A stretch of 40,814 nt of DNA, taken from contig JANMQV010000076.1 in NCBI GenBank assembly GCA_031370645.1, forward strand, positions 1 to 40,814. Direction: 5' to 3'. This document shows positions 30,346-40,721 of the stretch, piece by piece (the stretch's first letter is position 1; each line of letters opens with the position of its first letter). Source of the DNA: Candidatus Eiseniibacteriota bacterium. Lineage in GTDB: Bacteria; Eisenbacteria; RBG-16-71-46; SZUA-252. The notes under the pieces were generated by a model. It saw nothing but the letters and a program-made list of their open reading frames with translations. It made no database searches and had not been told where the DNA came from. Position numbers and translations under genes: made by a program.

Positions 30346-31440
30346 TCAGGCGATCTGCTTCAGCATCGCCTCGTTGGTGGGGAACTGCTCGAGCGCCTTC
30401 CGTAGATCCAGAATCGCCTGCTTCGGCGGAGAGTCGAGCAGCCGGCGGCGGAGGCGGTTCACCTTCTCGATATCCGTCGCGGAGTAGAGGAGCTCGTCCT
30501 TCCGCGTGCCGGTCTTCGCGATATTGATGGCCGGGAAGACTCGCTGGTCCGCGAGCGCCCGGTCGAGCACGATCTCGCTGTTTCCCGTCCCCTTGAACTC
30601 CTCGAAGATCATGTCATCCATTCGCGAGCCGGTTTCGACCAGCGCCGTCGCGAGGACGGTGATCGATCCGCCATTTTCCACGTTTCTCGCCATCCCGAAA
30701 AACTTCCGCGGTATCTCCAGCGCGCGGGAGTCGAGTCCGCCGCTCATCGTCCGCCCTGAATCCGACCCATGCGAGTTGAACGCCCGTCCCATGCGCGTGA
30801 TGCTGTCGACCAGCACCACCACGTCGTGCCCGCACTCGAGCTCGCAACGGACCTGGCCCATGCACATGTTCGCCACGTGCACGTGCTCGTCGAGCGACTG
30901 GTCGCTGCTGCTGGCCAACACCTCGGCCGGCACCTTCCGCCGGAAATGCGTCACTTCCTCGGGCCGTTCGTCGATGAGCAGAACCACCACGCGCGTCTCG
31001 GGCGCGTCGGCATGGATGGCGATCGCGAGGTCCTCGAGCAGCTGGGTTTTTCCGGCTTTCGGCGGCGAGACGATGAGGCCGCGCGTCCCGCGCCCCATGG
31101 GGGCGACGAGGTCGATGATCCGCATCGAGACGTTACCGCCCGTTCCGAGTCGGAATCGCTTATCGGGATTCGTGGCGACCAATTTTGTGAATGGAATCCT
31201 TGCCCGAAATGCCTCGGGGGCCAGACCGCAAATGGTATCGACGCCCTCGAGGCGGGGCCCCTGCTTCGTCGGCTGTGCGGGACCGGTGACGCTCGCGCCC
31301 GTCGTGAGGCCGTAGCGGTTGATGATCGCCTCGGGCACGAAGGGATCGCCGGAGAAGGGTGCGAAGGAGCGGGCGGGATCGCGGAGATAGCCGCCGCCGC
31401 GGTGCATCACTTCGAGAATACCGGAGACGGACGTCGGCAC
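30346..31440 (-). CDS. rho: Transcription termination factor Rho, short form (~364 aa)
   Basis: SPPKAGKT, LLIDERPEEVT, DSITRMGRAFN, SGRTMSGG, FEEFKGTGNSE and FPAINI..TGTRKDELL. Likely GTG start at 31440. Confidence 0.93.
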   Translation of the reverse strand: MPTSVSGILEVMHRGGGYLRDPARSFAPFSGDPFVPEAIINRYGLTTGASVTGPAQPTKQGPRLEGVDTICGLAPEAFRARIPFTKLVATNPDKRFRLGTGGNVSMRIIDLVAPMGRGTRGLIVSPPKAGKTQLLEDLAIAIHADAPETRVVVLLIDERPEEVTHFRRKVPAEVLASSSDQSLDEHVHVANMCMGQVRCELECGHDVVVLVDSITRMGRAFNSHGSDSGRTMSGGLDSRALEIPRKFFGMARNVENGGSITVLATALVETGSRMDDMIFEEFKGTGNSEIVLDRALADQRVFPAINIAKTGTRKDELLYSATDIEKVNRLRRRLLDSPPKQAILDLRKALEQFPTNEAMLKQIA

Positions 31441-31790
31441 GGTGGCGCTTCCAAGGTGGGTGGGTGAAGGGCAGGCAGGTTCTACGCGAGATCGTAACCG
31501 CGCTGCCAAAGGGTAAAGCGATCGTCGCTCCCGCGGGCACAGGCGTGGGGTCGGCGGATCGAGATGATCCTAGATGGTTTGGATGTCTGGCTGCAACAAG
31601 AATGGCCCGGCCCCCTGCGAAGCCGGGTCGGGCCTGCCGCGGGCAAATGGGCGGCCTTTCGGTAGAGCCGCCCCGTCGCGTCCGCCACTGGCCTACCATA
31701 GGGCTCGCGCCCCCTCGCCAATTCCTCTATCCTTTCTTGTCTGCGAAATGCATTCCACACCCCGACGACGAGCACGAGGACCACGCCGAG

Positions 31791-34700
31791 ATGATCGGGA
31801 AGAAGCTCCGCGCCTACGAAATTACCGAAGAGATCGGCTCCGGCGGCATGGCCACCGTTTACCGCGCCTACCAGCCGAGCATGGACCGCCACGTCGCCGT
31901 GAAGGTCATTCGCTCGTCGATCCTCCACGACCCCTCGCTCCGCGAGCGCTTCCAACGCGAGGCTCGGCTGATCGCCCGCCTCGAGCACCCGCATCTCTTG
32001 CCGGTCTACGACTTCGACAGCGATCACGAGCCGCCCTACATCGTGATGCGCTATCTCGAGGGCGGTACGCTGAAGCAGGTGCAGCAGCGGGGCGGGATCC
32101 CGCGCGACGAACTCCTCTACATCCTCCAGCAACTCGCCGGCGCGCTCGACTACGCACACCGCCAGGGCGTCGTCCATCGCGACCTGAAGCCCTCGAACGT
32201 GATGATCGACAAGGAAGGGAACGCATTCCTCACCGACTTCGGCATCGCGCGAGCGTCCGGCGCGGAGAAGGATCTGACCGGCACCGGACTCATGATCGGA
32301 ACGCCTGGCTACATGGCGCCCGAGCAGGCTCGCGGCGACGGACAGATCGACAAGGCCGCCGACATCTATTCTCTCGGCGTGATGGCGTTCGAGATTCTCA
32401 CCGGGCGCCAGCCGTACGAGAGCGAGAGCGCGTTCGACGTGATCCTCGCGCACATGAACAGTCCCATTCCTCGCGCCAGCGAGTGGCAGCGCGACATCCC
32501 GAAGTCGGTCGACGCGGTGCTGGCCCGGGCGCTCGCGAAGGCGAAGGCGGATCGGCATCCGACCGCGACGGCCTTCGTGGAGGAGCTGGCGAAGGCGCTC
32601 AAGCTCAAGCCGAGCAGCGCGCCGGCCGCCCTCCAATCGATGACGCAGACGATTTCCGTCGATCAGCTGGCGGCCCGCCAAGCGAACAAGGACGCCGCGG
32701 AGACGCCGAGTTCCTCCACGCCCTCCGACCAACAGCGGCAGATGACCGCCGTCTCGGTGGACGTTAAGGAGTTCGCCGAGATTCTCTACGAGAGCGGCGC
32801 CGACGCGGAGCGCGTTCGCTCCACGATGGAGTCGCTCTGGAGCGGATTCGCCAAGATCGCGGCCGAATCGGGCGGGGTCATTCACAGCCGCACGGACGAG
32901 ACGGGGCTCGCGCTCTGGGGCCGCGACCGGGCGCGCGAGGACGACTCGGAGAACGCGATTCGGGGCGCGCTCCTCATGCGCGATCGTGCCCTCACCGACG
33001 CGAGGTCGGTCCTCGGCAAGAGTTGGGAACCGAGCGAGGAAAATCCGCTGCCTTTCACGGCGGGGATCACGACCGGTCCCGTGCTCCTCGAGCGGGAGTC
33101 CGACTCCGGAACCTACACCGCGTCGGGCGCGCCGATCACGCTGGCGGGCCGCCTCAAGGAGGCGGCGCCGGCAGGTGGAGTTCTCGTCGCGCACGAAACG
33201 TACACGCTCGTTCGTGGCGTGTTCACGGTCACGGCCGCCGATCCCGTCCGCGTTCGGGGGCGGAAGGAACCGCTCGAAGTTTACCTCGTGACGCAGGTGA
33301 AGCCGCGCGCCTTCCGGCTTCGCGCCCGGGGGATCGAAGGCGTCGAGACGAAGATGATCGGAAGGGAGATCGAACTCCGCCTGCTTCAAGAAGCGCTGAC
33401 GCTGACGCTCGAGGACGGCGAGACGCAAGTCGTGACGGTCGTGGGGGAAGCGGGCGTCGGGAAATCGCGACTCCTCTACGAATTCAGCAGCTGGATGGAT
33501 CTCCAGGAACAGACGGTCTGGTTCTTCCAGGCGCGCGCCACCCAGCCCTCGATGCTCCAGCCCTACTCGCTCACGCGCGATCTCTTCTCCTTCCGCTTCC
33601 GGATCCTCGACTCCGATCCGCTCACCCAGGTGCACGAGAAATTCGTGAAGGGGATCGAGGGTTTCCTCGGCGAGGGGTCGACGCGCAAGGCGTATTTGAT
33701 CGGGCAGTTGGTCGGATTCGACTTCTCCGACAAGCCCGAGGTGGAATCGGCGCTCCAAGACGCCGATTCGTTCCGCCGCACGGCGCAGCAATTTCTCGGA
33801 GAGTTCTTCACATCGGCCTCGAAGACGAATCCCGTGGTTCTTCACATCGAGGACATCCACTGGGCCGACGACCGCTCGCTCGATCTCATCAACACTCTCG
33901 TGCGGGAGAACACGGAACTCCCGCTCTTCGTGCTCTGCATGTCGCGGCCGAGCCTCTACGAGCGGCGCCCGCAGTGGGGCGAGGGGCAGCGATTCCACGA
34001 ACGAATCCAGCTGGAACCGCTCTCGCAGCTCTCGAGCCGCCGCCTCGTTCGCGAACTCCTGAAGAACGTCCCCGAGGTGCCGACGGCGCTCCGCGATCTC
34101 GTCGTGGACCGCGCCGACGGGAATCCGTTCTACATCGAGGAGCTGATCAAAGCGCTGATCGACGATCGCGTGATTCTGAAGGGCGAGGAGGCATGGTCGG
34201 TGGACACATCCCGCCTCTCGACCGTGCGCGTCCCGGCCACTCTGACCGGCGTGTTGCAGGCGCGCCTCGACACGCTTCCGGTGCCGCTCCATCAGTTGCT
34301 GCAGCGTGCCTCGGTCGTGGGGCGAATCTTCTGGGATGCGGCCGCGGTGCGCCTGAGCCAAGAGGCGGCGGGCGTTTCACCGGACGACGTGCACGCGATG
34401 TTGGAAGACCTTCGCGGTCGGGAAATGATCCTGCAGCGAGAGGAGTCAGGATTCGCGGGCACGCTCGAGTACGTCTTCCGTCATGCGATCCTTCGCGACG
34501 TCACGTACGAGACGGTGGTTCCACGACAGCGGCGCACGTTCCACAAACTCGTCGGCGACTGGCTCTTGGAAGTGGGAGGCGAGAGAGCCGGCGAGCACAC
34601 GCTCCTCGTGGCCGAGCATTACGGCCGCGCGGAGGAATCCGCTCTGGCCGCGGCGCAATTGAAGAAGGCGGGGGAGAATTCGTACCTCCTCGCCGCCTAC

Positions 34701-35729
34701 GAGGAGGCCGCCACGCTCTTCCAGCGGGCGCGCGAGATCCTCTCGGGCCCCGAACATGCCGTTCAGCGGCTGGAGATCGAGATCCTGCGCGGAGAACTCG
34801 AGGGGCGCCGCAGCACGCACGCCAAGGCGGTCGAGATCCTGAAGCCCGCGCTGGAGGAGGCGCGGTCGATCGGCCACGAAGTCTTGCAGGCGAATCTTCT
34901 GGGTCAACTCGGGCGAATCGCCTACTGGCAGCGCCAGACGGAGGAATCCGGTCGCTACCTGAACGAAGCACTTGCCATCGCTCGGAAGTCGAACGACAAA
35001 CCGACGCTGATCTTCATTCTCCGCCAGGTCGGCAACTTGACCTATCGCACCGATACGGAGGCGGCCAGGAAGTTACTCCAAGAGAGCATCCAGTTGGCGC
35101 GCACGACCGGTGACCGAAGAAGCGAGGCGACGGGGCTCAACTCGCTCGGCAACCTCCTGGGCTACCTTGACGAATTCGCGGGCGCCATCGAGTGCTACGA
35201 ACCCTCGCGCGATATCTTCCGCGAACTGGGAGATCGAAACTCCGAATGCATGGTGCTCTCGAATCTCTCGTTCCTCCACACCGAGCTCGATGACTTTCAG
35301 GCCGGGGAGCGGGAAGCGAAGACCGCGCTCACGATCCTGCGAGAAATCGGCGGGCTTCAGATGCGGGCGGGGTGCGAGATCAGCCTGGCGAATATCTGTC
35401 TCCGGACGGGCCGAAACGCCGAGGCGTTGAAGTACGCGAATCTGGCCGCGACGACCGGCCGAGAACTCGATGAGCCGTTCTTCTACTTGGGGTTCATGTA
35501 CGGACTCCTCAAGATCCGAAGCGGCGACCGCGCGGCCGGTCTCGCGTGGATGGGCTTCGCCCGGCGGCATGAAACGGAGTTCAACAAGGAAGTGCTTCGG
35601 GACATCCGGCGGCACTGGGACGAGATTCGCGGCGATCTAACCGAGGAGGAAGCGGAAGCCGCGATGAAGGCCGGCGAGGACCTAAAGTTCGAGGAGATCA
35701 CCGCCCAGGCGGCCCGAGAAGCCCCGTAA
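31791..35729 (+). CDS. Ser/Thr kinase, degenerate class III cyclase-like domain, STAND/AAA_16 ATPase, TPR repeats
   Basis: GSGGMATVY, HRDLKPSN, DFG and YMAPE; cyclase-like RQMTAVSVD..AGITTGPV..LAGRL; MIGREIEL, Walker A GEAGVGKS, Walker B LHIEDIHWAD, GNPFYIEE; TPRs. Start revised to the ATG at 31791 (MIGKKL). Confidence 0.94.
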   Translation: MIGKKLRAYEITEEIGSGGMATVYRAYQPSMDRHVAVKVIRSSILHDPSLRERFQREARLIARLEHPHLLPVYDFDSDHEPPYIVMRYLEGGTLKQVQQRGGIPRDELLYILQQLAGALDYAHRQGVVHRDLKPSNVMIDKEGNAFLTDFGIARASGAEKDLTGTGLMIGTPGYMAPEQARGDGQIDKAADIYSLGVMAFEILTGRQPYESESAFDVILAHMNSPIPRASEWQRDIPKSVDAVLARALAKAKADRHPTATAFVEELAKALKLKPSSAPAALQSMTQTISVDQLAARQANKDAAETPSSSTPSDQQRQMTAVSVDVKEFAEILYESGADAERVRSTMESLWSGFAKIAAESGGVIHSRTDETGLALWGRDRAREDDSENAIRGALLMRDRALTDARSVLGKSWEPSEENPLPFTAGITTGPVLLERESDSGTYTASGAPITLAGRLKEAAPAGGVLVAHETYTLVRGVFTVTAADPVRVRGRKEPLEVYLVTQVKPRAFRLRARGIEGVETKMIGREIELRLLQEALTLTLEDGETQVVTVVGEAGVGKSRLLYEFSSWMDLQEQTVWFFQARATQPSMLQPYSLTRDLFSFRFRILDSDPLTQVHEKFVKGIEGFLGEGSTRKAYLIGQLVGFDFSDKPEVESALQDADSFRRTAQQFLGEFFTSASKTNPVVLHIEDIHWADDRSLDLINTLVRENTELPLFVLCMSRPSLYERRPQWGEGQRFHERIQLEPLSQLSSRRLVRELLKNVPEVPTALRDLVVDRADGNPFYIEELIKALIDDRVILKGEEAWSVDTSRLSTVRVPATLTGVLQARLDTLPVPLHQLLQRASVVGRIFWDAAAVRLSQEAAGVSPDDVHAMLEDLRGREMILQREESGFAGTLEYVFRHAILRDVTYETVVPRQRRTFHKLVGDWLLEVGGERAGEHTLLVAEHYGRAEESALAAAQLKKAGENSYLLAAYEEAATLFQRAREILSGPEHAVQRLEIEILRGELEGRRSTHAKAVEILKPALEEARSIGHEVLQANLLGQLGRIAYWQRQTEESGRYLNEALAIARKSNDKPTLIFILRQVGNLTYRTDTEAARKLLQESIQLARTTGDRRSEATGLNSLGNLLGYLDEFAGAIECYEPSRDIFRELGDRNSECMVLSNLSFLHTELDDFQAGEREAKTALTILREIGGLQMRAGCEISLANICLRTGRNAEALKYANLAATTGRELDEPFFYLGFMYGLLKIRSGDRAAGLAWMGFARRHETEFNKEVLRDIRRHWDEIRGDLTEEEAEAAMKAGEDLKFEEITAQAAREAP

Positions 35730-35834: not shown

Positions 35835-37211
35835 ATGACTCGAAGAATCGTTCTGGCCCTCGCGGCCATCGTGATCGCCGCCGGCTGCGCCGGCTCGTCC
35901 AAACTCACCGACAAGAGTGAGGAGAAGCTAGCGGGCGGAAACGCCTGGGGGGCGTGGCAACTCGCGACCCGCGCGCTCGACAAGGAGCCGGGCAATCCGC
36001 GCGCTCGCGCGGCGGCCACCGCGGCCGGCGCTTCGATCGCCCAGGAGTGGCAGCGGAAAATTCACGCGCTCGCGGATCTCGACAGCGTGAACGCGGCCGA
36101 GGAAGTGCTGAATCTCGCCGAGTTCCGGGCGAACGCGGCGCGTTACGCCACGATTCCGGTCGGCGCCGAGTGGCCGGCGGAAGAGCGGGCGCTTCTTGCA
36201 AGCGCGGCCCGCTATCACTATCAGCGCGGGCTCGAGGCTGCGAATTCAAGCCGTCCCAAGAAGGCGTGCGCCGAATTCGCCAACGCCGAACGGTTCGTTC
36301 CCGGTTACCGCGACGTGGCGAAGCGCGCCGATCGCGCGTTGGGCGAGGCGCTCACGCGCGTTGCGCTCGTGCCGTTCCGCGCCTCCTCCGAGGATCCCAC
36401 GCTCGGCGTCAACGTGGCGCAGGCGTGGCGCGACAATCTCTCGCAGAATCTCGCGCCGCCGGCGGCGCCCTTCACGCGCATTCTCGGCGGCGACGCCATC
36501 GAACGCTCCATGACGATCTCCGAACTGGAAGGGCTCTCGCGCGAACAGGCGATTCGCCTCGGCCGGAGGTCGGGTGCCGACCGCGTCGTGTGGGGCTCGA
36601 TCGGCCGCGTTCGCTCGTCCACGAAAATGAACTTCTTCCGTGATTCGGTCGCGCGTCGCGTCACCGAGCGCCAAGCGAACGGCACGGAGACGGATCGCTG
36701 GGTCGAGGTTCCGATCGAAGTCGTCGCGCGCGTGCGCGATGTGACGGTCGGCGTCGATTACGAAGTCATTTCGGTGACGAGCGGCGTTTCGATCGCCCAT
36801 CGCCACGTCGACCGCGCCACGACCGCGCGTGTCGTCTGGACGTCGCAGCAACTCGATGGCGATCCCTCGTCCTACTCGCTCGTTTCGGAAACGGTACGCG
36901 CGTCGAATCCCGACCGGGTGAAGGATGTCGAGACGCGCTGGCGCTCGGTCTGCGGCGACGCGACCACGCTGGCGCAGGTGATTCAGGCGCGCCGCTCGGC
37001 GGGATCGAACGGCCGGTACGCCCGCGAATCGCTGCCGCGGTTCCTGGCGGGCGCGGCGTTCGTCTTCCTCGAAGATCTGCCGCCGGCCGGGGATCTCGCC
37101 TATGCGGCGCTGGCGCAGGGTTCCGCGCCGCTTCGCGACGATCTCCTTCGGCTCGACGCCATCGACGACGTCGATCTGGGCATGGAGGGACTCGACTCCC
37201 GTTCGCGCTAA
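35835..37211 (+). CDS. Uncharacterised lipoprotein (helical/TPR-like N-terminus, possible CsgG/TolB-N-like alpha/beta domain)
   Basis: Lipobox AAG-C; PGYRDV; RVALVPF..AIRLGRRSGADRVVWGSI. Confidence 0.8.
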   Translation: MTRRIVLALAAIVIAAGCAGSSKLTDKSEEKLAGGNAWGAWQLATRALDKEPGNPRARAAATAAGASIAQEWQRKIHALADLDSVNAAEEVLNLAEFRANAARYATIPVGAEWPAEERALLASAARYHYQRGLEAANSSRPKKACAEFANAERFVPGYRDVAKRADRALGEALTRVALVPFRASSEDPTLGVNVAQAWRDNLSQNLAPPAAPFTRILGGDAIERSMTISELEGLSREQAIRLGRRSGADRVVWGSIGRVRSSTKMNFFRDSVARRVTERQANGTETDRWVEVPIEVVARVRDVTVGVDYEVISVTSGVSIAHRHVDRATTARVVWTSQQLDGDPSSYSLVSETVRASNPDRVKDVETRWRSVCGDATTLAQVIQARRSAGSNGRYARESLPRFLAGAAFVFLEDLPPAGDLAYAALAQGSAPLRDDLLRLDAIDDVDLGMEGLDSRSR

Positions 37212-37759
37212 GCCGCGGGAGGCCGCTCGGGGGCGTTCTTAAGCACCTCGAGAAACTGCGTGTAGGCGGCACGGGCTTGATTGAAATCGCTCCGAGTGAG
37301 ATTCATCTCGGTGGCGATGCGGCGAATCTCGCCATCCTCGGCGGATGAGATGCTCTCGTCCGCCGAGGAAACGGCGAAGAGCGATTCCAGGAGCTGCACC
37401 TTCTGCTCCTGGGTGGCCATCTTGTAGAACTCCCGCGTGACCAAGTAATTCTCCGTCGACCCGAAGAGAAGCGTCTGCGTCTTCGCCATCTGGACGACCA
37501 AGATGGCTTCCTCTTCTTCCAGCCCTCCCAACTCGCGGAGGATTCGCTCCATGGCGCGAACTTCGGTGGCACTGATCTCCTGGTCCGCGTTCGCGACACG
37601 GCTCAGGATGTAGGCGAACGAAGCGATGTATCGCGCCCGCTCCGGCTCCAACTGATCCAACGCATCCACGATCTTCCGCACCGTCTCGGGCGCCGACGGG
37701 GAACCGCCTCCACCACCTCCGCCGAGACGATCGAGCCCCAAGAACTTCAAGATCGACAT
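37208..37759 (-). CDS. TerB-family (tellurite resistance / DjlA-N-like) protein
   Basis: Two AD-x-x-IS-x-x-E motifs (VANADQEISATE, VSSADESISSAE); RBS GAGAGG. Confidence 0.88.
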   Translation of the reverse strand: MSILKFLGLDRLGGGGGGGSPSAPETVRKIVDALDQLEPERARYIASFAYILSRVANADQEISATEVRAMERILRELGGLEEEEAILVVQMAKTQTLLFGSTENYLVTREFYKMATQEQKVQLLESLFAVSSADESISSAEDGEIRRIATEMNLTRSDFNQARAAYTQFLEVLKNAPERPPAA

Positions 37760-37784: not shown

Positions 37785-38180
37785 TCATGAATCGAGGATC
37801 TTGTGAAGCTCCTCCGTGACGTCGAGCATATTCACCGTGTGATCGGGCTGCTTCCAGAGCGTCTTGCCGTCGGTAGAGCGGATCACGAGGCCGTGCGACT
37901 TGAAGCCGAGCCCCTTGATCTCGGCGCGCGCCTCGGGCGTCGTCACGTCCACGTTTCGCGCCGTCACCTTTCCCGGAAAGTCCTCTTCGAGCCCGCTCAC
38001 GGCGGGCTTCAGCTGCTGACAAACCATTCAGAGAGGGAGGTAGTAGTAGGTCACGACGACCGCGTCGACCTTGGTCCGGGACGCGCCGTTTCCGCCGCCG
38101 CAGCCCGCGAACACTCCGATCACGAGCAACGCCGCAAGCGCCAATCCCGCCTGCCATGAGAAGTGCTGCCGTTTTGTCAT
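37785..38180 (-). CDS. Probable selenoprotein: thioredoxin-fold lipoprotein with a UxxC motif (131 aa, Sec51 encoded by TGA at 38028-38030)
   Basis: In-frame translation: MTKRQHFSWQAGLALAALLVIGVFAGCGGGNGASRTKVDAVVVTYYYLPL-[TGA]-MVCQQLKPAVSGLEEDFPGKVTARNVDV... Lipobox FAG-C27. The TGA sits at the first position of the Trx CxxC motif and is followed by a SECIS-like hairpin. Confidence 0.85.
37990..38008 (-). other. Candidate bacterial SECIS element
   Basis: The mRNA reads AGCCCGC-CGUGA-GCGGGCU: a 7-bp stem and 5-nt loop with G at loop position 2. The stem starts 20 nt and the loop 27 nt after the UGA. Confidence 0.7.
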
Positions 38181-38704: not shown

Positions 38705-39976
38705 ATGAAGAAGAAACCCCTCTTGATCGGGGCCGCAGTCCTTTTGGTCGCCGTCATCGTGACTGGGATGGCCATGCGCGGCCGTGGCGACAAGGCGCCG
38801 GAAGTTCAGACCGCCAAGGTCAGCCGGCAGAAGATCGTTCAGAAGGTGAGCGCGACCGGGAAGATCCAGCCGAAGACCCAGGTCGAGATCAGCGCCGACG
38901 TCAGCGCGAAGATCAAGAAACTCCCGGTCGTGGAAGGACAGCACGTCGAGAAGGGGCAATTCCTGGTCGGACTCGATCGGGAGCGATACGTCGCCGCGGT
39001 GGAGAGCGCCGAAGCGAACGTCAGCTCGGCCCAGGCGAACGCCACCCTCGTGCGCGAGAACATGAACCGCGCCGGGAACGAATTCAAACGATCGAAGGAA
39101 CTCCTCGCGGGCGGCCTCGAATCGCAGTCGGCGTTCGAAGCGAAGCAGGCCGAATACCAGGTTGAAGTCGCGCGCTACAAATCAAACCAGGACAATGTCG
39201 AGCAGGCGAAGGCCGCCCTGAAGCAGGCGCGCGACGACCTCTCGAAGACGACGATCTACGCGCCGATGGCCGGCACGATCAGCTCCTTGAACAAGGAGGA
39301 GGGTGAAATCGCCCTCGGCTCTCAGTTCCAGAAGGACGTGATCTTGATCATCGCCGATCTCCGCGAGATGGAGGCCCAGGTGAACGTGGACGAAAACGAC
39401 ATCGTCTCGATCGTGGTGGGGCAGCCCGCCGAGATCGAGGTCGACGCCATGCTCGATCACAAGCTCGAGGGCGTCGTCTACGAGATCTCGAACAGTGCGA
39501 ATGTGGCTGGGACCGGGACGGCCGATCAGAAGACCGAGTTCGAGATCAAGATCGCGATCAAGAATCCCCCCCCGACGCTTCGCCCGGGCATGACGGCGAG
39601 TTCGGACATCGTGACGAAGACGAACGAGAACGCGCTGAGCGTGCCGCTCCAGAGCGTCGCGGTTCGGACGGTCGATCAGCTGAAGAAGAAGGGCGAAAAG
39701 CAGAAGGACGCCGAAGCCCGCTACAAGGCCGACAAGGACGGCTTCGTCGAAATCGTCTTCTGCGTCGAGGCCGGAAAGGCCGTGGCGAAGCAGGTGAAGA
39801 CCGGCATCCAGAGCGACGACTTGATCGAGATCGTAGATGGGCTGAAAGAGGGAGAGGAGATCGTGAGCGGGAGCTACCGCGCGATTTCCAAGGACCTCGA
39901 AAACGGAGCCGTCGTGACGATCACCAAGGAGCCGAAGAAGGAAGACGGAGGGAAGGCGAGTGCCTCACGAGGGTAA
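38705..39976 (+). CDS. Periplasmic adaptor (membrane fusion protein), MacA/YknX-like
   Basis: RBS AGGAGG; N-terminal [21 protein letters not shown]; coiled coil; [26 protein letters not shown]. Confidence 0.95.
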
Positions 39977-39980
39977 CGGC

Positions 39981-40721
39981 GTGACCGCGGCGCCGACGTT
40001 GCGACTTCGGGACGTGGTGAAGACCTACCCGATGGGGAGCGAGATCGTCCGCGCCCTGAACGGCGTCTCGCTCGACGTCGCGAAGAACGAGTACGTCGCG
40101 ATCATGGGGCCGTCGGGCTCGGGGAAGTCGACGCTGATGAACATCATCGGCTGCCTCGACGTGCCGACGTCCGGCACCTACACGCTGGAGGGGCAGGCGG
40201 TGGCCGCGATGGCCGAAGACCAGCTGGCCGAGATCCGGAATCGGCGGATCGGCTTCGTCTTTCAGACCTTCAACCTGATCCCTCGCTCCGACGTCTTTCA
40301 CAACGTGGAGCTCCCGCTGATCTACGCAGGAGTTTCCCGGCCGGAACGCCGCCGCCGCGCGGAGACGGCGCTTGCGCGGGTCGGGCTCGGCGACCGCATG
40401 AAGCACCGGCCGAATGAACTCTCGGGCGGGCAGCGCCAGCGCGTGGCCATCGCGCGCGCGTTGGTCCACAACCCTTCCATCATTCTCGCCGACGAGCCGA
40501 CCGGCAATCTCGACACGAAGACCGGCGACAGCATCATGGAGATGCTCGACCAGCTCCACGCCGCGGGACAGACGATCATCCTCGTGACCCACGAGGAGTA
40601 CATCGCCGCCTATGCGCGGCGGACCGTCCGGCTTCGCGACGGCTTGATCGAGAGCGATCTCCCGAGCGGCGGAACGCGCGCGGCGGGCGAGCCGCTGCTT
40701 GCGGAGGCGCTCGCGGGATGA
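39981..40721 (+). CDS. ABC transporter ATP-binding protein (MacB/LolD/YknY-like)
   Basis: [44 protein letters not shown] and VTHE. GTG at 39981 preferred; 39960 is an alternative. Confidence 0.96.

What the first reader, a model, noticed from the sequence alone, without database searches (positions are those of the whole stretch)
37785..38180. Hidden UxxC thioredoxin-fold seleno-lipoprotein with a SECIS-like hairpin
Seen: the ORF track calls only an 80-aa ORF from 38027. In the same frame, 50 further codons upstream encode a lipoprotein signal (FAG-C) and a Trx-like strand (VVVTYYYLPL), separated from MVCQQLKP by one TGA. Read through, this gives U-M-V-C followed by xxLxP, as in the CxxC..(M/L)xP pattern of thioredoxins. 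A GC-rich hairpin with G near the 5' side of its loop lies 20-38 nt after the UGA. Known: bacterial Sec insertion uses such a hairpin just 3' of the UGA, and UxxC Trx-like selenoproteins exist. Inference: this is an extracytoplasmic, lipid-anchored selenoprotein that gene callers would split. The usual cis-Pro position appears to read SHG, hinting at a non-canonical family.
Basis: partly seen in the sequence, partly recalled or inferred. Interest (0 to 1): 0.85.

Follow-up and report, generated by a model that had tools for sequence, protein, structure and literature searches.

The report
Unannotated exported thioredoxin-fold selenoprotein gene
The apparent stop codon inside this small gene almost certainly encodes selenocysteine at the active site of a membrane-tethered thioredoxin-like protein that databases cut in two; it is a real but fairly ordinary addition to a well-known kind of bacterial selenoprotein.

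Summary
One minus-strand gene (window 38180..37785) encodes a 131-residue protein: lipoprotein signal peptide, Gly-rich linker and a minimal thioredoxin fold. An in-frame TGA (38030..38028) sits at the first position of a U-x-x-C motif.

- **Conservation:** The TGA is kept in all 22 strong matches among 61 related genomes. Protein conservation runs across both sides in 21 of them.
- **Cys homologues:** Full-length relatives carry CxxC at the same column.
- **Hairpin:** A 19-nt hairpin 20-38 nt after the UGA meets all four published bacterial SECIS criteria. Its synonymous sites are frozen, and it is missing from the Cys-form gene.
- **Machinery:** The genome has selA, selB, a Sec-containing selD and tRNA-Sec.
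- **Assembly:** Independent contigs keep the TGA.

Public databases hold only the two halves, as "hypothetical proteins". No Pfam-specific or NCBIfam selenoprotein model covers the family.

His96-Gly97 replaces x-cisPro and is a family hallmark. That leaves open a metal-binding rather than purely redox role.

Function is inferred: most likely an extracytoplasmic thiol/selenol-disulfide oxidoreductase. The kind (UxxC thioredoxin-fold selenoprotein) is well known. This scan has already met the same family on other DNA (notes e1-2805386, e1-757312).

The parts
37785..38180 (-). Whole gene: 131 codons including one Sec-UGA, plus the terminal TGA stop (37785..37787)
   Evidence: Relatives match residues 1-131 across the TGA.
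38100..38180 (-). Lipoprotein signal peptide, residues 1-27: K3/R4, a hydrophobic core, and the lipobox V-F-A-G-C27 (C27 = 38102..38100)
   Evidence: Direct reading. A lipobox-type pattern (recalled PROSITE-style regex) is met in the window and in every intact member of the window's family.
38061..38099 (-). Gly-rich flexible linker (residues 28-40), variable in length among relatives
   Evidence: pLDDT about 50-70. Length varies from 17 to 47 residues between the lipobox Cys and U.
37791..38060 (-). Thioredoxin-fold domain, residues 41-130 (b1-a1-b2-a2-b3-b4-a3)
   Evidence: AlphaFold2 model with pLDDT 96-98 over this range. Foldseek probability 1.00 to thioredoxins. VIA-align Z 12.8, rmsd 1.7 A over 87 residues. 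Pfam PF00085 at 24.2 bits against a cut-off of 23.5, spanning the TGA.
38028..38030 (-). Sec codon UGA (residue 51)
   Evidence: Conserved TGA in 22 of 22 strong matches and in 39 of 39 named loci (that search was biased toward Sec forms). Cys sits at this column in homologues.
38019..38030 (-). Redox motif U51-M-V-C54 at the N-terminus of helix a1
37990..38008 (-). bSECIS hairpin AGCCCGC-CGUGA-GCGGGCU; the apical loop is 38001..37997, 26 nt after the UGA
   Evidence: - Meets all four published criteria.
- Synonymous sites are frozen: 5 of 6 codon columns inside the hairpin use a single codon, against 2 of 38 outside.
- The 15-nt core is identical in 36 of 41 unique Sec-form sequences.
- It is replaced by another hairpin in the distant Sec form L041 and missing in the Cys form L106.
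37890..37895 (-). His96-Gly97, replacing the x-cisPro of canonical thioredoxin folds at the start of b3

Best explanation
Window 38180..37785(-) is one gene for a 131-residue selenoprotein.

**How it is made.** During translation the UGA at codon 51 is read as selenocysteine. SelB with Sec-tRNA(Sec) is recruited by the 19-nt hairpin that lies within the coding sequence, 20-38 nt downstream of the UGA. The second TGA, at the end of the gene, has no such hairpin and terminates.

**Where it goes.** The product is exported by its signal peptide and lipid-modified at Cys27. It is tethered to a membrane on the extracytoplasmic side by a Gly-rich linker.

**What it does.** It carries a minimal thioredoxin fold whose exposed N-terminal active-site residue is Sec (U51-x-x-C54). 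Most likely it works as a thiol/selenol-disulfide oxidoreductase on exported proteins or small oxidants, cycling between selenol/thiol and a selenenylsulfide.

**Shown versus inferred.**
- Shown: gene continuity, the Sec/Cys pair, the RNA-level constraint, presence of the machinery, and the fold.
- Inferred: actual Se incorporation, lipidation, redox activity, substrate and electron donor.

**My odds.** About 0.93 that this is a genuine Sec codon. About 0.6 that the activity is disulfide/selenenylsulfide exchange rather than metal binding or something else.
For: 1. **Continuity.** Relatives match both sides of the TGA. Of 61 genomes searched, 24 had a match, and all 22 matches at E <= 1.1e-8 carry an in-frame TGA. 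In 21 of 22 extracted ORFs the motif YY(Y/F)(L/M)P(G/L)-U-x-x-C is in frame. Pfam Thioredoxin aligns to residues 39-86, across codon 51.
2. **Sec/Cys pair.** 19 of 22 full-length database homologues fetched have CxxC at the column. The Cys protein P0136 and the Sec gene L080 are 84% identical (107 of 128). 9 of their 21 visible differences fall in residues 35-52, which hold the U/C motif and the hairpin-encoded peptide.
3. **SECIS.** The hairpin has a 7-bp stem, a 5-nt loop CGUGA and 26-nt spacing, at -12.7 kcal/mol. This fits the criteria quoted in PMC13188914 (passages of section 5 and the Fig. 2 legend).
4. **Frozen synonymous sites.** Codons +8..+13 use one codon in 5 of 6 conserved degenerate columns, against 2 of 38 elsewhere in the same 20 sequences (Fisher p = 1.1e-4; the sequences are kin, so this is indicative only). 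The frozen codons include the non-preferred AGC and GGG.
5. **Hairpin tracks the TGA.** The Sec form L041, at 31% identity, has a different hairpin at the same place. The Cys form L106 lacks the hairpin.
6. **Machinery.** selA scores 532 bits, selB 345 bits, and selD 354 bits with its own in-frame TGA. tRNA-Sec sits beside selD with a UCA anticodon. selD has its own hairpin 13 nt after its UGA.
7. **TGA is otherwise a normal stop.** TGA closes 562, TAG 389 and TAA 160 of the open frames of at least 500 codons.
8. **Not an assembly error.** Contigs of runs X3, X4 and X6 cover 38028-38030 with no difference there. X6 record 8 is a diverged strain, with 19 other differences over 612 bases.
9. **Fold.**
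Against: - There is no direct evidence of Se incorporation or expression. No RNA run was listed (see Tried and rejected).
- Base-pair covariation is thin because the hairpin hardly varies. There is one compensatory change (L032, C-G to U-A) and a few wobble-preserving single changes. Several breaks occur in the three outer pairs.
- Over the whole 76-nt stretch the fold is no more stable than shuffles (z = +0.97).
- Rfam has no matching SECIS family.
- One relative (L040, also seen as L079) has a 1-nt shift directly before the TGA.
- For the redox function: the canonical cis-Pro, which helps bind substrate polypeptides, is absent.
- The x-x dipeptide between U and C is highly variable.
- No conserved redox partner gene lies nearby.
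- Three family members have lost both Cys yet keep H96-G97.
Confidence: 0.85

Rival explanations
1. This is the same selenoprotein, but its job is to bind a metal, metalloid or Fe-S cluster rather than to exchange disulfides. Ligands would be Sec51, Cys54 and His96 (perhaps His114). The natural loss of the cis-Pro opens the active site to metal.
For: - H96-G97 replaces x-cisPro and is near-invariant (H in 37 of 40, G in 39 of 40 members).
- One member has Cys in place of H96 (P0129).
- Mutating only the cis-Pro of human TRX1 allows [2Fe-2S] assembly (PMC6210436 discussion passage summarising Su et al. 2007; the primary paper is not held).
- The x-x dipeptide is variable.
- A TerB-domain gene lies 25 nt downstream in the window's genus.
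- Several predicted metal-handling selenoproteins are known (Table 1 of PMC13188914).
Against: - H96-G97 is kept in the three members that lost both Cys (P0126, P0164, P0165). That suggests a structural role for HG.
- H114 is not conserved across the family.
- No metal-related gene is a conserved neighbour. TerB appears in only 5 of 22 loci, all in one genus.
- No coordinates were available to measure the geometry.
- The motif is CxxC, not the CxxxC of Sco proteins.
Confidence: 0.18
2. The TGA is a true stop. The locus would then be a pseudogene, or two separate small genes: a 50-aa lipopeptide and an 80-aa protein, possibly coupled through the overlapping UGA-AUG.
For: - Standard ORF calling gives two ORFs.
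- In the window, an ATG follows the TGA directly.
- Databases list both pieces.
Against: - The TGA is kept in 22 of 22 strong matches in several genera and in other phyla. A decaying pseudogene would not stay intact at 50-80% identity.
- The codon after the TGA is ATG in only 13 of 21 relatives. The others have CCG, GCG or AGG, so reinitiation cannot be general.
- The thioredoxin fold needs strand b1, which lies upstream of the TGA.
- Cys homologues are continuous.
Confidence: 0.03
3. The UGA is read through or recoded as a standard amino acid (Trp, Cys or Gly) without selenium.
For: Near-cognate readthrough of UGA occurs at low level in bacteria. No Se data exist for this gene.
Against: - TGA is the commonest ordinary stop in this genome.
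- The complete Sec machinery is present.
- A conserved hairpin of SECIS geometry is tied to the TGA and is missing from the Cys form.
- The aligned residue in homologues is Cys, as expected for Sec/Cys pairs.
Confidence: 0.03

Closest known systems
Sec-containing thioredoxin and glutaredoxin (UxxC; PF00085 and PF00462), as listed in Table 1 of PMC13188914
   Same: Thioredoxin fold. Sec is at the N-terminal position of UxxC at the start of helix a1. There is an in-frame UGA with a downstream bSECIS, and Cys homologues exist.
   Different: - These are cytoplasmic and have the cis-Pro. This protein is exported and lipid-anchored.
- It lacks the N-terminal b-a unit of classical Trx and has no WCGPC.
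- It has His-Gly at the cis-Pro site.
- TrxA models score far below cut-off (19.5 against 96.8 bits).
Exported UxxC thioredoxin-fold selenoproteins: thiol:disulfide interchange protein (PF13098), DsbA-like, DsbG-like (NF041057), thiol-disulfide isomerase-like (cd02966), redoxin family (same Table 1)
   Same: An extracytoplasmic thioredoxin-fold protein with UxxC. These are routinely split by gene callers.
   Different: Those families carry helical or CMP-type insertions and a cis-Pro. This one is a bare ~90-residue fold. No NCBIfam model of these families matches any of the 40 members at its cut-off.
SaoT (NF040730) and MJ0307-type small thioredoxins (TIGR00411)
   Same: A small ~85-residue glutaredoxin-like topology with Sec/Cys variants of CxxC.
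   Different: SaoT has no signal peptide and lies in the sao operon. Only 2 of 40 members touch NF040730 (best E 7e-4) and 5 of 40 touch TIGR00411 (best E 4e-5). The window protein matches neither at E <= 1.
Lipoprotein selenoproteins SaoX and SaoC (bioRxiv 10.1101/2022.07.06.499078, passages seen)
   Same: A precedent for Sec in exported, lipid-anchored bacterial proteins.
   Different: Unrelated folds: an ABC substrate-binding protein and a 'dark matter' CC-COOH protein.
Sco/SenC copper chaperones (recalled, plus PMC2757866 passages)
   Same: A thioredoxin fold used to bind metal with two Cys and a His. Exported and membrane-tethered.
   Different: The Sco motif is CxxxC with an extra helix-strand insertion. 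No SCO1-SenC Pfam match appeared among the 40 members at E <= 0.01. That the Sco His is equivalent to H96 is my recollection only and is not tested.

Membership tests
Bacterial selenoprotein (UGA decoded via bSECIS/SelB) | In-frame UGA conserved among orthologues, with coding conservation on both sides | tested here: met
   22 of 22 strong matches carry the TGA. 21 of 22 ORFs are in frame across it.
Bacterial selenoprotein (UGA decoded via bSECIS/SelB) | Cys-containing homologues with Cys aligned to the UGA | tested here: met
   19 of 22 full-length homologues have CxxC there. The Sec/Cys orthologue pair is 84% identical.
Bacterial selenoprotein (UGA decoded via bSECIS/SelB) | bSECIS: 3-9 nt loop, 4-16 bp stem, G in the first two loop positions, 16-37 nt spacing, MFE <= -7.5 kcal/mol | tested here: met
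   Loop 5 nt (CGUGA), stem 7 bp, spacing 26 nt, -12.7 kcal/mol. Criteria taken.
Bacterial selenoprotein (UGA decoded via bSECIS/SelB) | selA, selB, selC and selD present in the genome | tested here: met
Bacterial selenoprotein (UGA decoded via bSECIS/SelB) | Selenium actually incorporated at the UGA | not testable with these tools
   Needs 75Se labelling or mass spectrometry.
Thioredoxin-fold superfamily | Four-stranded mixed sheet with three helices (b-a-b-a-b-b-a) | tested here: met
   Model pLDDT 96-98. Z 12.8, rmsd 1.7 A over 87 residues. Foldseek probability 1.00.
Thioredoxin-fold superfamily | CxxC-type motif at the N-terminus of helix a1 | tested here: met
   U51-M-V-C54; helix a1 starts at residue 52.
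Thioredoxin-fold superfamily | cis-Pro at the N-terminus of strand b3 | tested here: not met
   G97 aligns to the cis-Pro and H96 to the residue before it. This is near-invariant in the family.
Classical thioredoxin TrxA (TIGR01068 / NF047697) | Score above the curated cut-off | tested here: not met
   19.5 bits against 96.8, and 20.7 bits against 140.
Pfam Thioredoxin PF00085 | Score above the gathering threshold | tested here: met
   24.2 bits against 23.5, which is marginal. 19 of 40 members match at E <= 0.01.
Curated thioredoxin-like selenoprotein families of NCBIfam (SaoT NF040730, VPGUxxT NF041383, HUIPC NF047660, GOS_C NF045500, DsbG-like NF041057, Uxx-star NF041212) | Match to the family HMM at its cut-off | tested here: not met
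   None is listed for the window protein at E <= 1. Among the 40 members there are only weak touches: NF040730 in 2 and NF041212 in 1.
Bacterial lipoprotein | Signal peptide ending in a lipobox with Cys at +1 | tested here: met
   K3/R4, a hydrophobic core, V-F-A-G-C27. The regex is a recalled PROSITE-style pattern. Processing by Lgt and Lsp is not testable here.
Sco/SenC copper chaperone | CxxxC motif and a match to the SCO1-SenC domain | tested here: not met
   The motif is CxxC. No such Pfam family appears among the matches of the 40 members.
Rfam SECIS families | Covariance-model match | tested here: not met
   No match at gathering score. Only chance-level hits to unrelated families at E > 4.

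The most novel reading that the evidence does not exclude
The family is a naturally cis-Pro-less thioredoxin fold in which Sec51, Cys54 and the invariant His96 form an extracytoplasmic metal, metalloid or Fe-S site. That would make it a seleno-metallochaperone or sensor tethered to the membrane. Selenium would serve as a soft ligand rather than a redox nucleophile.
Probability: 0.15. Interest if true: 0.7.

Novelty: new member of a known kind. Interest (0 to 1): 0.4.

Why it matters
**Annotation.** The family is common in sediment and soil bacteria labelled Eisenbacteria and Acidobacteriota. Public databases list it only as two 'hypothetical' fragments. A family model would repair hundreds of gene calls: 255 fragment clusters were found.

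**Two features worth a bench look.**
- The His-Gly replacement of the otherwise very strongly conserved cis-Pro bears on what that proline does in thioredoxin folds.
- The SECIS hairpin is almost identical at the nucleotide level across phyla, together with a natural 84%-identical Sec/Cys orthologue pair. This gives a clean system for studying how Sec and Cys forms interconvert.

The decoding mechanism itself is textbook.

Tried and rejected
- **Whole-stretch fold.** Folding the whole 76 nt after the UGA gave z = +0.97 against shuffles. Only the local hairpin is notable.
- **Rfam.** Nothing at gathering score and only chance-level hits at E > 4.
- **Genomic context.** A TerB-domain gene lies downstream in only 5 of 22 loci, all in one genus. 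A 458-aa lipoprotein with no Pfam family is nearby in 8 of 22 loci, in two arrangements. Neighbours in 20 diverse loci were GAPDH, esterases, NmrA, a glycosyltransferase, an M23 peptidase and, in a few, HlyD or ABC genes (53 ORFs scanned). No recurrent partner emerged.
- **P0175.** This protein fuses Trx-like domains to a DsbD membrane domain, but it keeps a canonical cis-Pro, so it says nothing about this subfamily. The genome does have one DsbD_TM gene, which is generic.
- **Multi-domain hits.** Large multi-domain hits such as P0149 are ordinary PDI-type thioredoxin repeats.
- **Transcription signals.** No sigma-70-like promoter and no terminator were found around the gene.
- **Expression.** No RNA holder was listed among public runs, so expression is untested.
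- **Same hairpin elsewhere.** The 13-mer occurs at three other genome sites, none with a suitably placed TGA.
- **Queries that could not be made.** The ESM Atlas would not take the readthrough protein. Su et al. 2007 is not held.
- **Literature.** No paper holds both 'Eisenbacteria' and 'selenocysteine'. One paper holds 'selenoprotein', 'lipoprotein signal peptide' and 'thioredoxin', and it describes other families. Supplementary tables of the large selenoproteome surveys were not examined and may list members of this family under 'Trx-like'.

Full report
**Observation.** The feature lies on the minus strand.
- Standard ORF listing gives an 80-aa ORF at 37785..38027 and, in the same frame directly upstream, a 50-aa ORF at 38028..38180. 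A single TGA (38030..38028) separates them.
- Read with TGA=U, the frame gives MTKRQHFSWQAGLALAALLVIGVFAGCGGGNGASRTKVDAVVVTYYYLPL-U-MVCQQLKPAVSGLEEDFPGKV... It ends at a second TGA, 37787..37785.
- The hairpin AGCCCGC-CGUGA-GCGGGCU occupies window 38008..37990.

**Is it one gene?**
- Pfam's Thioredoxin model aligns to residues 39-86, straight across codon 51. The score is 24.2 bits against a cut-off of 23.5.
- I searched 61 genomes of relatives with the readthrough protein. 24 had a match. All 22 matches at E <= 1.1e-8 span both sides and contain an in-frame TGA. The two remaining weak matches are a 25-residue contig-end fragment and an E = 0.007 hit.
- By genus the gene was found in 6 of 7, 7 of 10 and 8 of 9 genomes of three genera of the window's family, and in 0 of 10 of a fourth.
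- Extracting the ORFs shows YY(Y/F)(L/M)P(G/L)-U-x-x-C in frame in 21 of 22. One low-quality genome (L040) has a 1-nt shift directly before the TGA.
- In the public protein collection, 255 proteins matched at E <= 0.01. The 120 best listed are 74-106 residues long and cover only 52-61% of the query, the part after the TGA. Where a name is given it is 'hypothetical protein', and one is from a MAG labelled Candidatus Eisenbacteria.
- The orphan N-terminal halves (44-50 aa, ending YYYLPL) are also on record (P0151, P0177, P0187, P0209).

**Sec/Cys pair.**
- A search of 1.84 billion cluster representatives found 108 relatives at E <= 1e-3. I fetched 26 of them: 22 full-length proteins and the 4 N-terminal stubs.
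- Of the 22 full-length proteins, 19 have CxxC exactly at the U-x-x-C column. Three (P0126, P0164, P0165) have lost both Cys.
- A profile search of 206 genomes of the phylum does not depend on the hairpin peptide. It found the gene in 24 genomes: 23 with an in-frame TGA and one (G099, locus L106) with an uninterrupted Cys form.
- A pattern-based scan of named genomes returned 39 loci, all with TGA. The pattern that could find them was the hairpin-encoded peptide itself, so this count is biased toward Sec forms.
- Those loci carry labels of Candidatus Eisenbacteria, Acidobacteriota and Thermoanaerobaculia, plus single MAGs with other labels. Some of the other labels sit on sequences identical to loci from the window's family, so I read them with care.
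- The Cys protein P0136 and the Sec gene L080 are 84% identical (107 of 128). 9 of the 21 visible differences lie in residues 35-52, which hold the active-site motif and the peptide encoded by the hairpin.

**SECIS.**
- A 2026 review gives the bacterial model: 3-9 nt apical loop, 4-16 bp upper stem, a G in the first two loop positions, 16-37 nt between UGA and loop, and MFE <= -7.5 kcal/mol (PMC13188914; passages of section 5 and the Fig. 2 legend).
- The hairpin here has a 5-nt loop CGUGA, a 7-bp stem and 26-nt spacing, at -12.7 kcal/mol.
- As a chance control, 84 of 941 TGA trinucleotides in the window pass the criteria and 9 of 941 reach -12.7 kcal/mol.
- The stronger evidence is evolutionary. 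Among 20 distinct Sec-form genes, I left out L041 (31% identity, a different hairpin) and the frameshifted L040. Codons +8 to +13 (P-A-V-S-G-L) use a single codon in 5 of 6 conserved degenerate columns. Only 2 of 38 such columns elsewhere do so, and one of those two is the AAG at the hairpin's base (Fisher p = 1.1e-4; the sequences are related, so this is indicative only).
- The frozen codons include AGC and GGG, which are not the preferred Ser and Gly codons elsewhere in the gene.
- Over 61 loci there are 41 distinct 72-nt segments, because the two locus sets overlap. The 21-mer is identical in 24 of these and the 15-nt core CCCGCCGTGAGCGGG in 36.
- True covariation is thin. There is one compensatory C-G to U-A change (L032) and a few wobble-preserving single changes. 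There are several breaks in the three outer pairs.
- The most distant Sec form (L041) has a different hairpin, CACGA-GUU-UCGUG, at the same place. The Cys form L106 lacks the hairpin.
- Rfam has no matching family.

**Machinery and code.**
- The window's genome has 247 contigs and is 95% complete. It encodes selA (532 bits), selB (345 bits) and selD (354 bits, with one in-frame TGA of its own). A tRNA-Sec sits next to selD, and ARAGORN gives it a UCA anticodon.
- selD has its own GC-rich hairpin with a GGA loop 13 nt after its UGA.
- TGA is the commonest ordinary stop: TGA closes 562, TAG 389 and TAA 160 of the open frames of at least 500 codons. There is therefore no global reassignment.
- Contigs from other samples (runs X3, X4, X6, from two studies) cover the codon with no difference at 38028-38030. 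One of them is a diverged strain. These are contigs, not raw reads, so rare variants cannot be excluded.

**The protein.**
- Residues 1-27 form a lipoprotein signal peptide: K3/R4, a hydrophobic core, and V-F-A-G-C27.
- Every intact member of the window's family has such a lipobox. Many Acidobacteriota members instead have ordinary signal peptides. Export is therefore the shared trait and lipidation is lineage-specific (the pattern is a recalled PROSITE-style regex).
- An AlphaFold2 model built on a 40-sequence alignment is confident over residues 41-130 (pLDDT 96-98). It shows b1(41-47)-a1(52-62)-b2(72-78)-a2(82-91)-b3(97-102)-b4(107-112)-a3(118-130).
- The nearest solved structures are thioredoxins: Foldseek probability 1.00 and VIA-align Z 12.8, rmsd 1.7 A over 87 residues.
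- Near-invariant columns are Y46, P49, U/C51, C54, L64, H96 and G97.
- The profile alignment to thioredoxins puts G97 on the cis-Pro and H96 on the preceding residue. One outlier (P0179) still has F-P-T there.

**What it most likely does.**
- By position, the exposed N-terminal residue of the motif at the N-cap of a1 is the nucleophile in thioredoxin-fold oxidoreductases (established knowledge). The simplest reading is a membrane-tethered extracytoplasmic selenol/thiol-disulfide oxidoreductase. This step is inferred.
- No partner gene is conserved nearby.
- The missing cis-Pro keeps a rival alive. The thioredoxin-fold atlas says this proline is more conserved than the CxxC itself. It adds that the proline may prevent metal binding to CxxC (PMC2757866, passages).
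- Mutating the cis-Pro alone lets human TRX1 assemble a [2Fe-2S] cluster (PMC6210436, discussion passage on Su et al. 2007).
- Against a metal site, H96-G97 persists in the three members without any Cys, and H114 is not conserved.

**Comparison and novelty.**
- UxxC thioredoxin-fold selenoproteins are long known, both cytoplasmic (Trx, Grx) and exported (DsbA-, DsbG- and TlpA-like). Many are catalogued (Table 1 of PMC13188914).
- Lipoprotein selenoproteins are also described: SaoX and SaoC (bioRxiv 10.1101/2022.07.06.499078, passages).
- No NCBIfam model reaches its cut-off for the window protein or for any of the 40 aligned members. Only the generic Pfam Thioredoxin model does, marginally.
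- I therefore file this as a new, uncatalogued member of a known kind.
- Two earlier notes of this scan (e1-2805386, e1-757312) reached the same reading for the same family in Acidobacteriota. They are AI notes and not independent evidence. I tested the claim afresh on this window.
- I did not see the supplementary tables of the published selenoproteome surveys. Members of this family may be counted there under 'Trx-like'.

**Verdict.** The gene is a real selenoprotein gene (about 0.93). The mechanism is ordinary. The family-specific His-Gly and the almost invariant SECIS are the only features of more than routine interest.

Noticed in passing
G000 contig C103:5043 (selD) and C103:6057-6150; C167:16685-16779: selD is itself a selenoprotein (SCAG-U-AAK), with tRNA-Sec directly downstream. 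A second, quite different tRNA-Sec-like gene, also with a UCA anticodon, lies on another contig of similar G+C (Rfam 64.5 bits; ARAGORN calls it tRNA-SeC). It could be a second selC, an allo-tRNA or a binning artefact.
   Followed up: partly
window 37208..37759 (-): A TerB-domain protein gene (Pfam E 6e-18) starts 25 nt after the selenoprotein's stop and is probably co-transcribed. This pairing is seen in only 5 of 22 loci, all in the window's genus.
   Followed up: partly
window 35835..37211 (+): A 458-aa predicted lipoprotein with no Pfam family. It lies near the selenoprotein gene in 8 of 22 loci in two different arrangements: convergent beyond terB here, and divergent and adjacent in L026, L028 and L032.
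   Followed up: partly
L040 / L079 / L104 (one genome): This relative has a single extra base directly before the TGA, so the upstream half is out of frame. It is either a sequencing error in a fragmented MAG or a recent pseudogene.
   Followed up: no
L080 versus P0136: A natural Sec/Cys orthologue pair at 84% identity. The Cys form has also changed the hairpin-encoded PAVSGLE to PDIQALA, and H96 to Q.
   Followed up: partly
window 31359..35729 (+): A 1456-aa Ser/Thr protein kinase with AAA_16 ATPase and TPR domains (STAND-like architecture).
   Followed up: no
window 38705..40721 (+): A HlyD-family membrane-fusion protein and an ABC ATPase (MacAB-like efflux pair) lie divergent from the selenoprotein gene. 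HlyD or ABC genes also lie next to the gene in a few distant loci (L054, L057, L067), but of different types.
   Followed up: partly
P0156 (255 aa): A tandem of two domains of this family in one secreted protein. Each has CPxC. The first has Q-G and the second H-G at the cis-Pro site.
   Followed up: no
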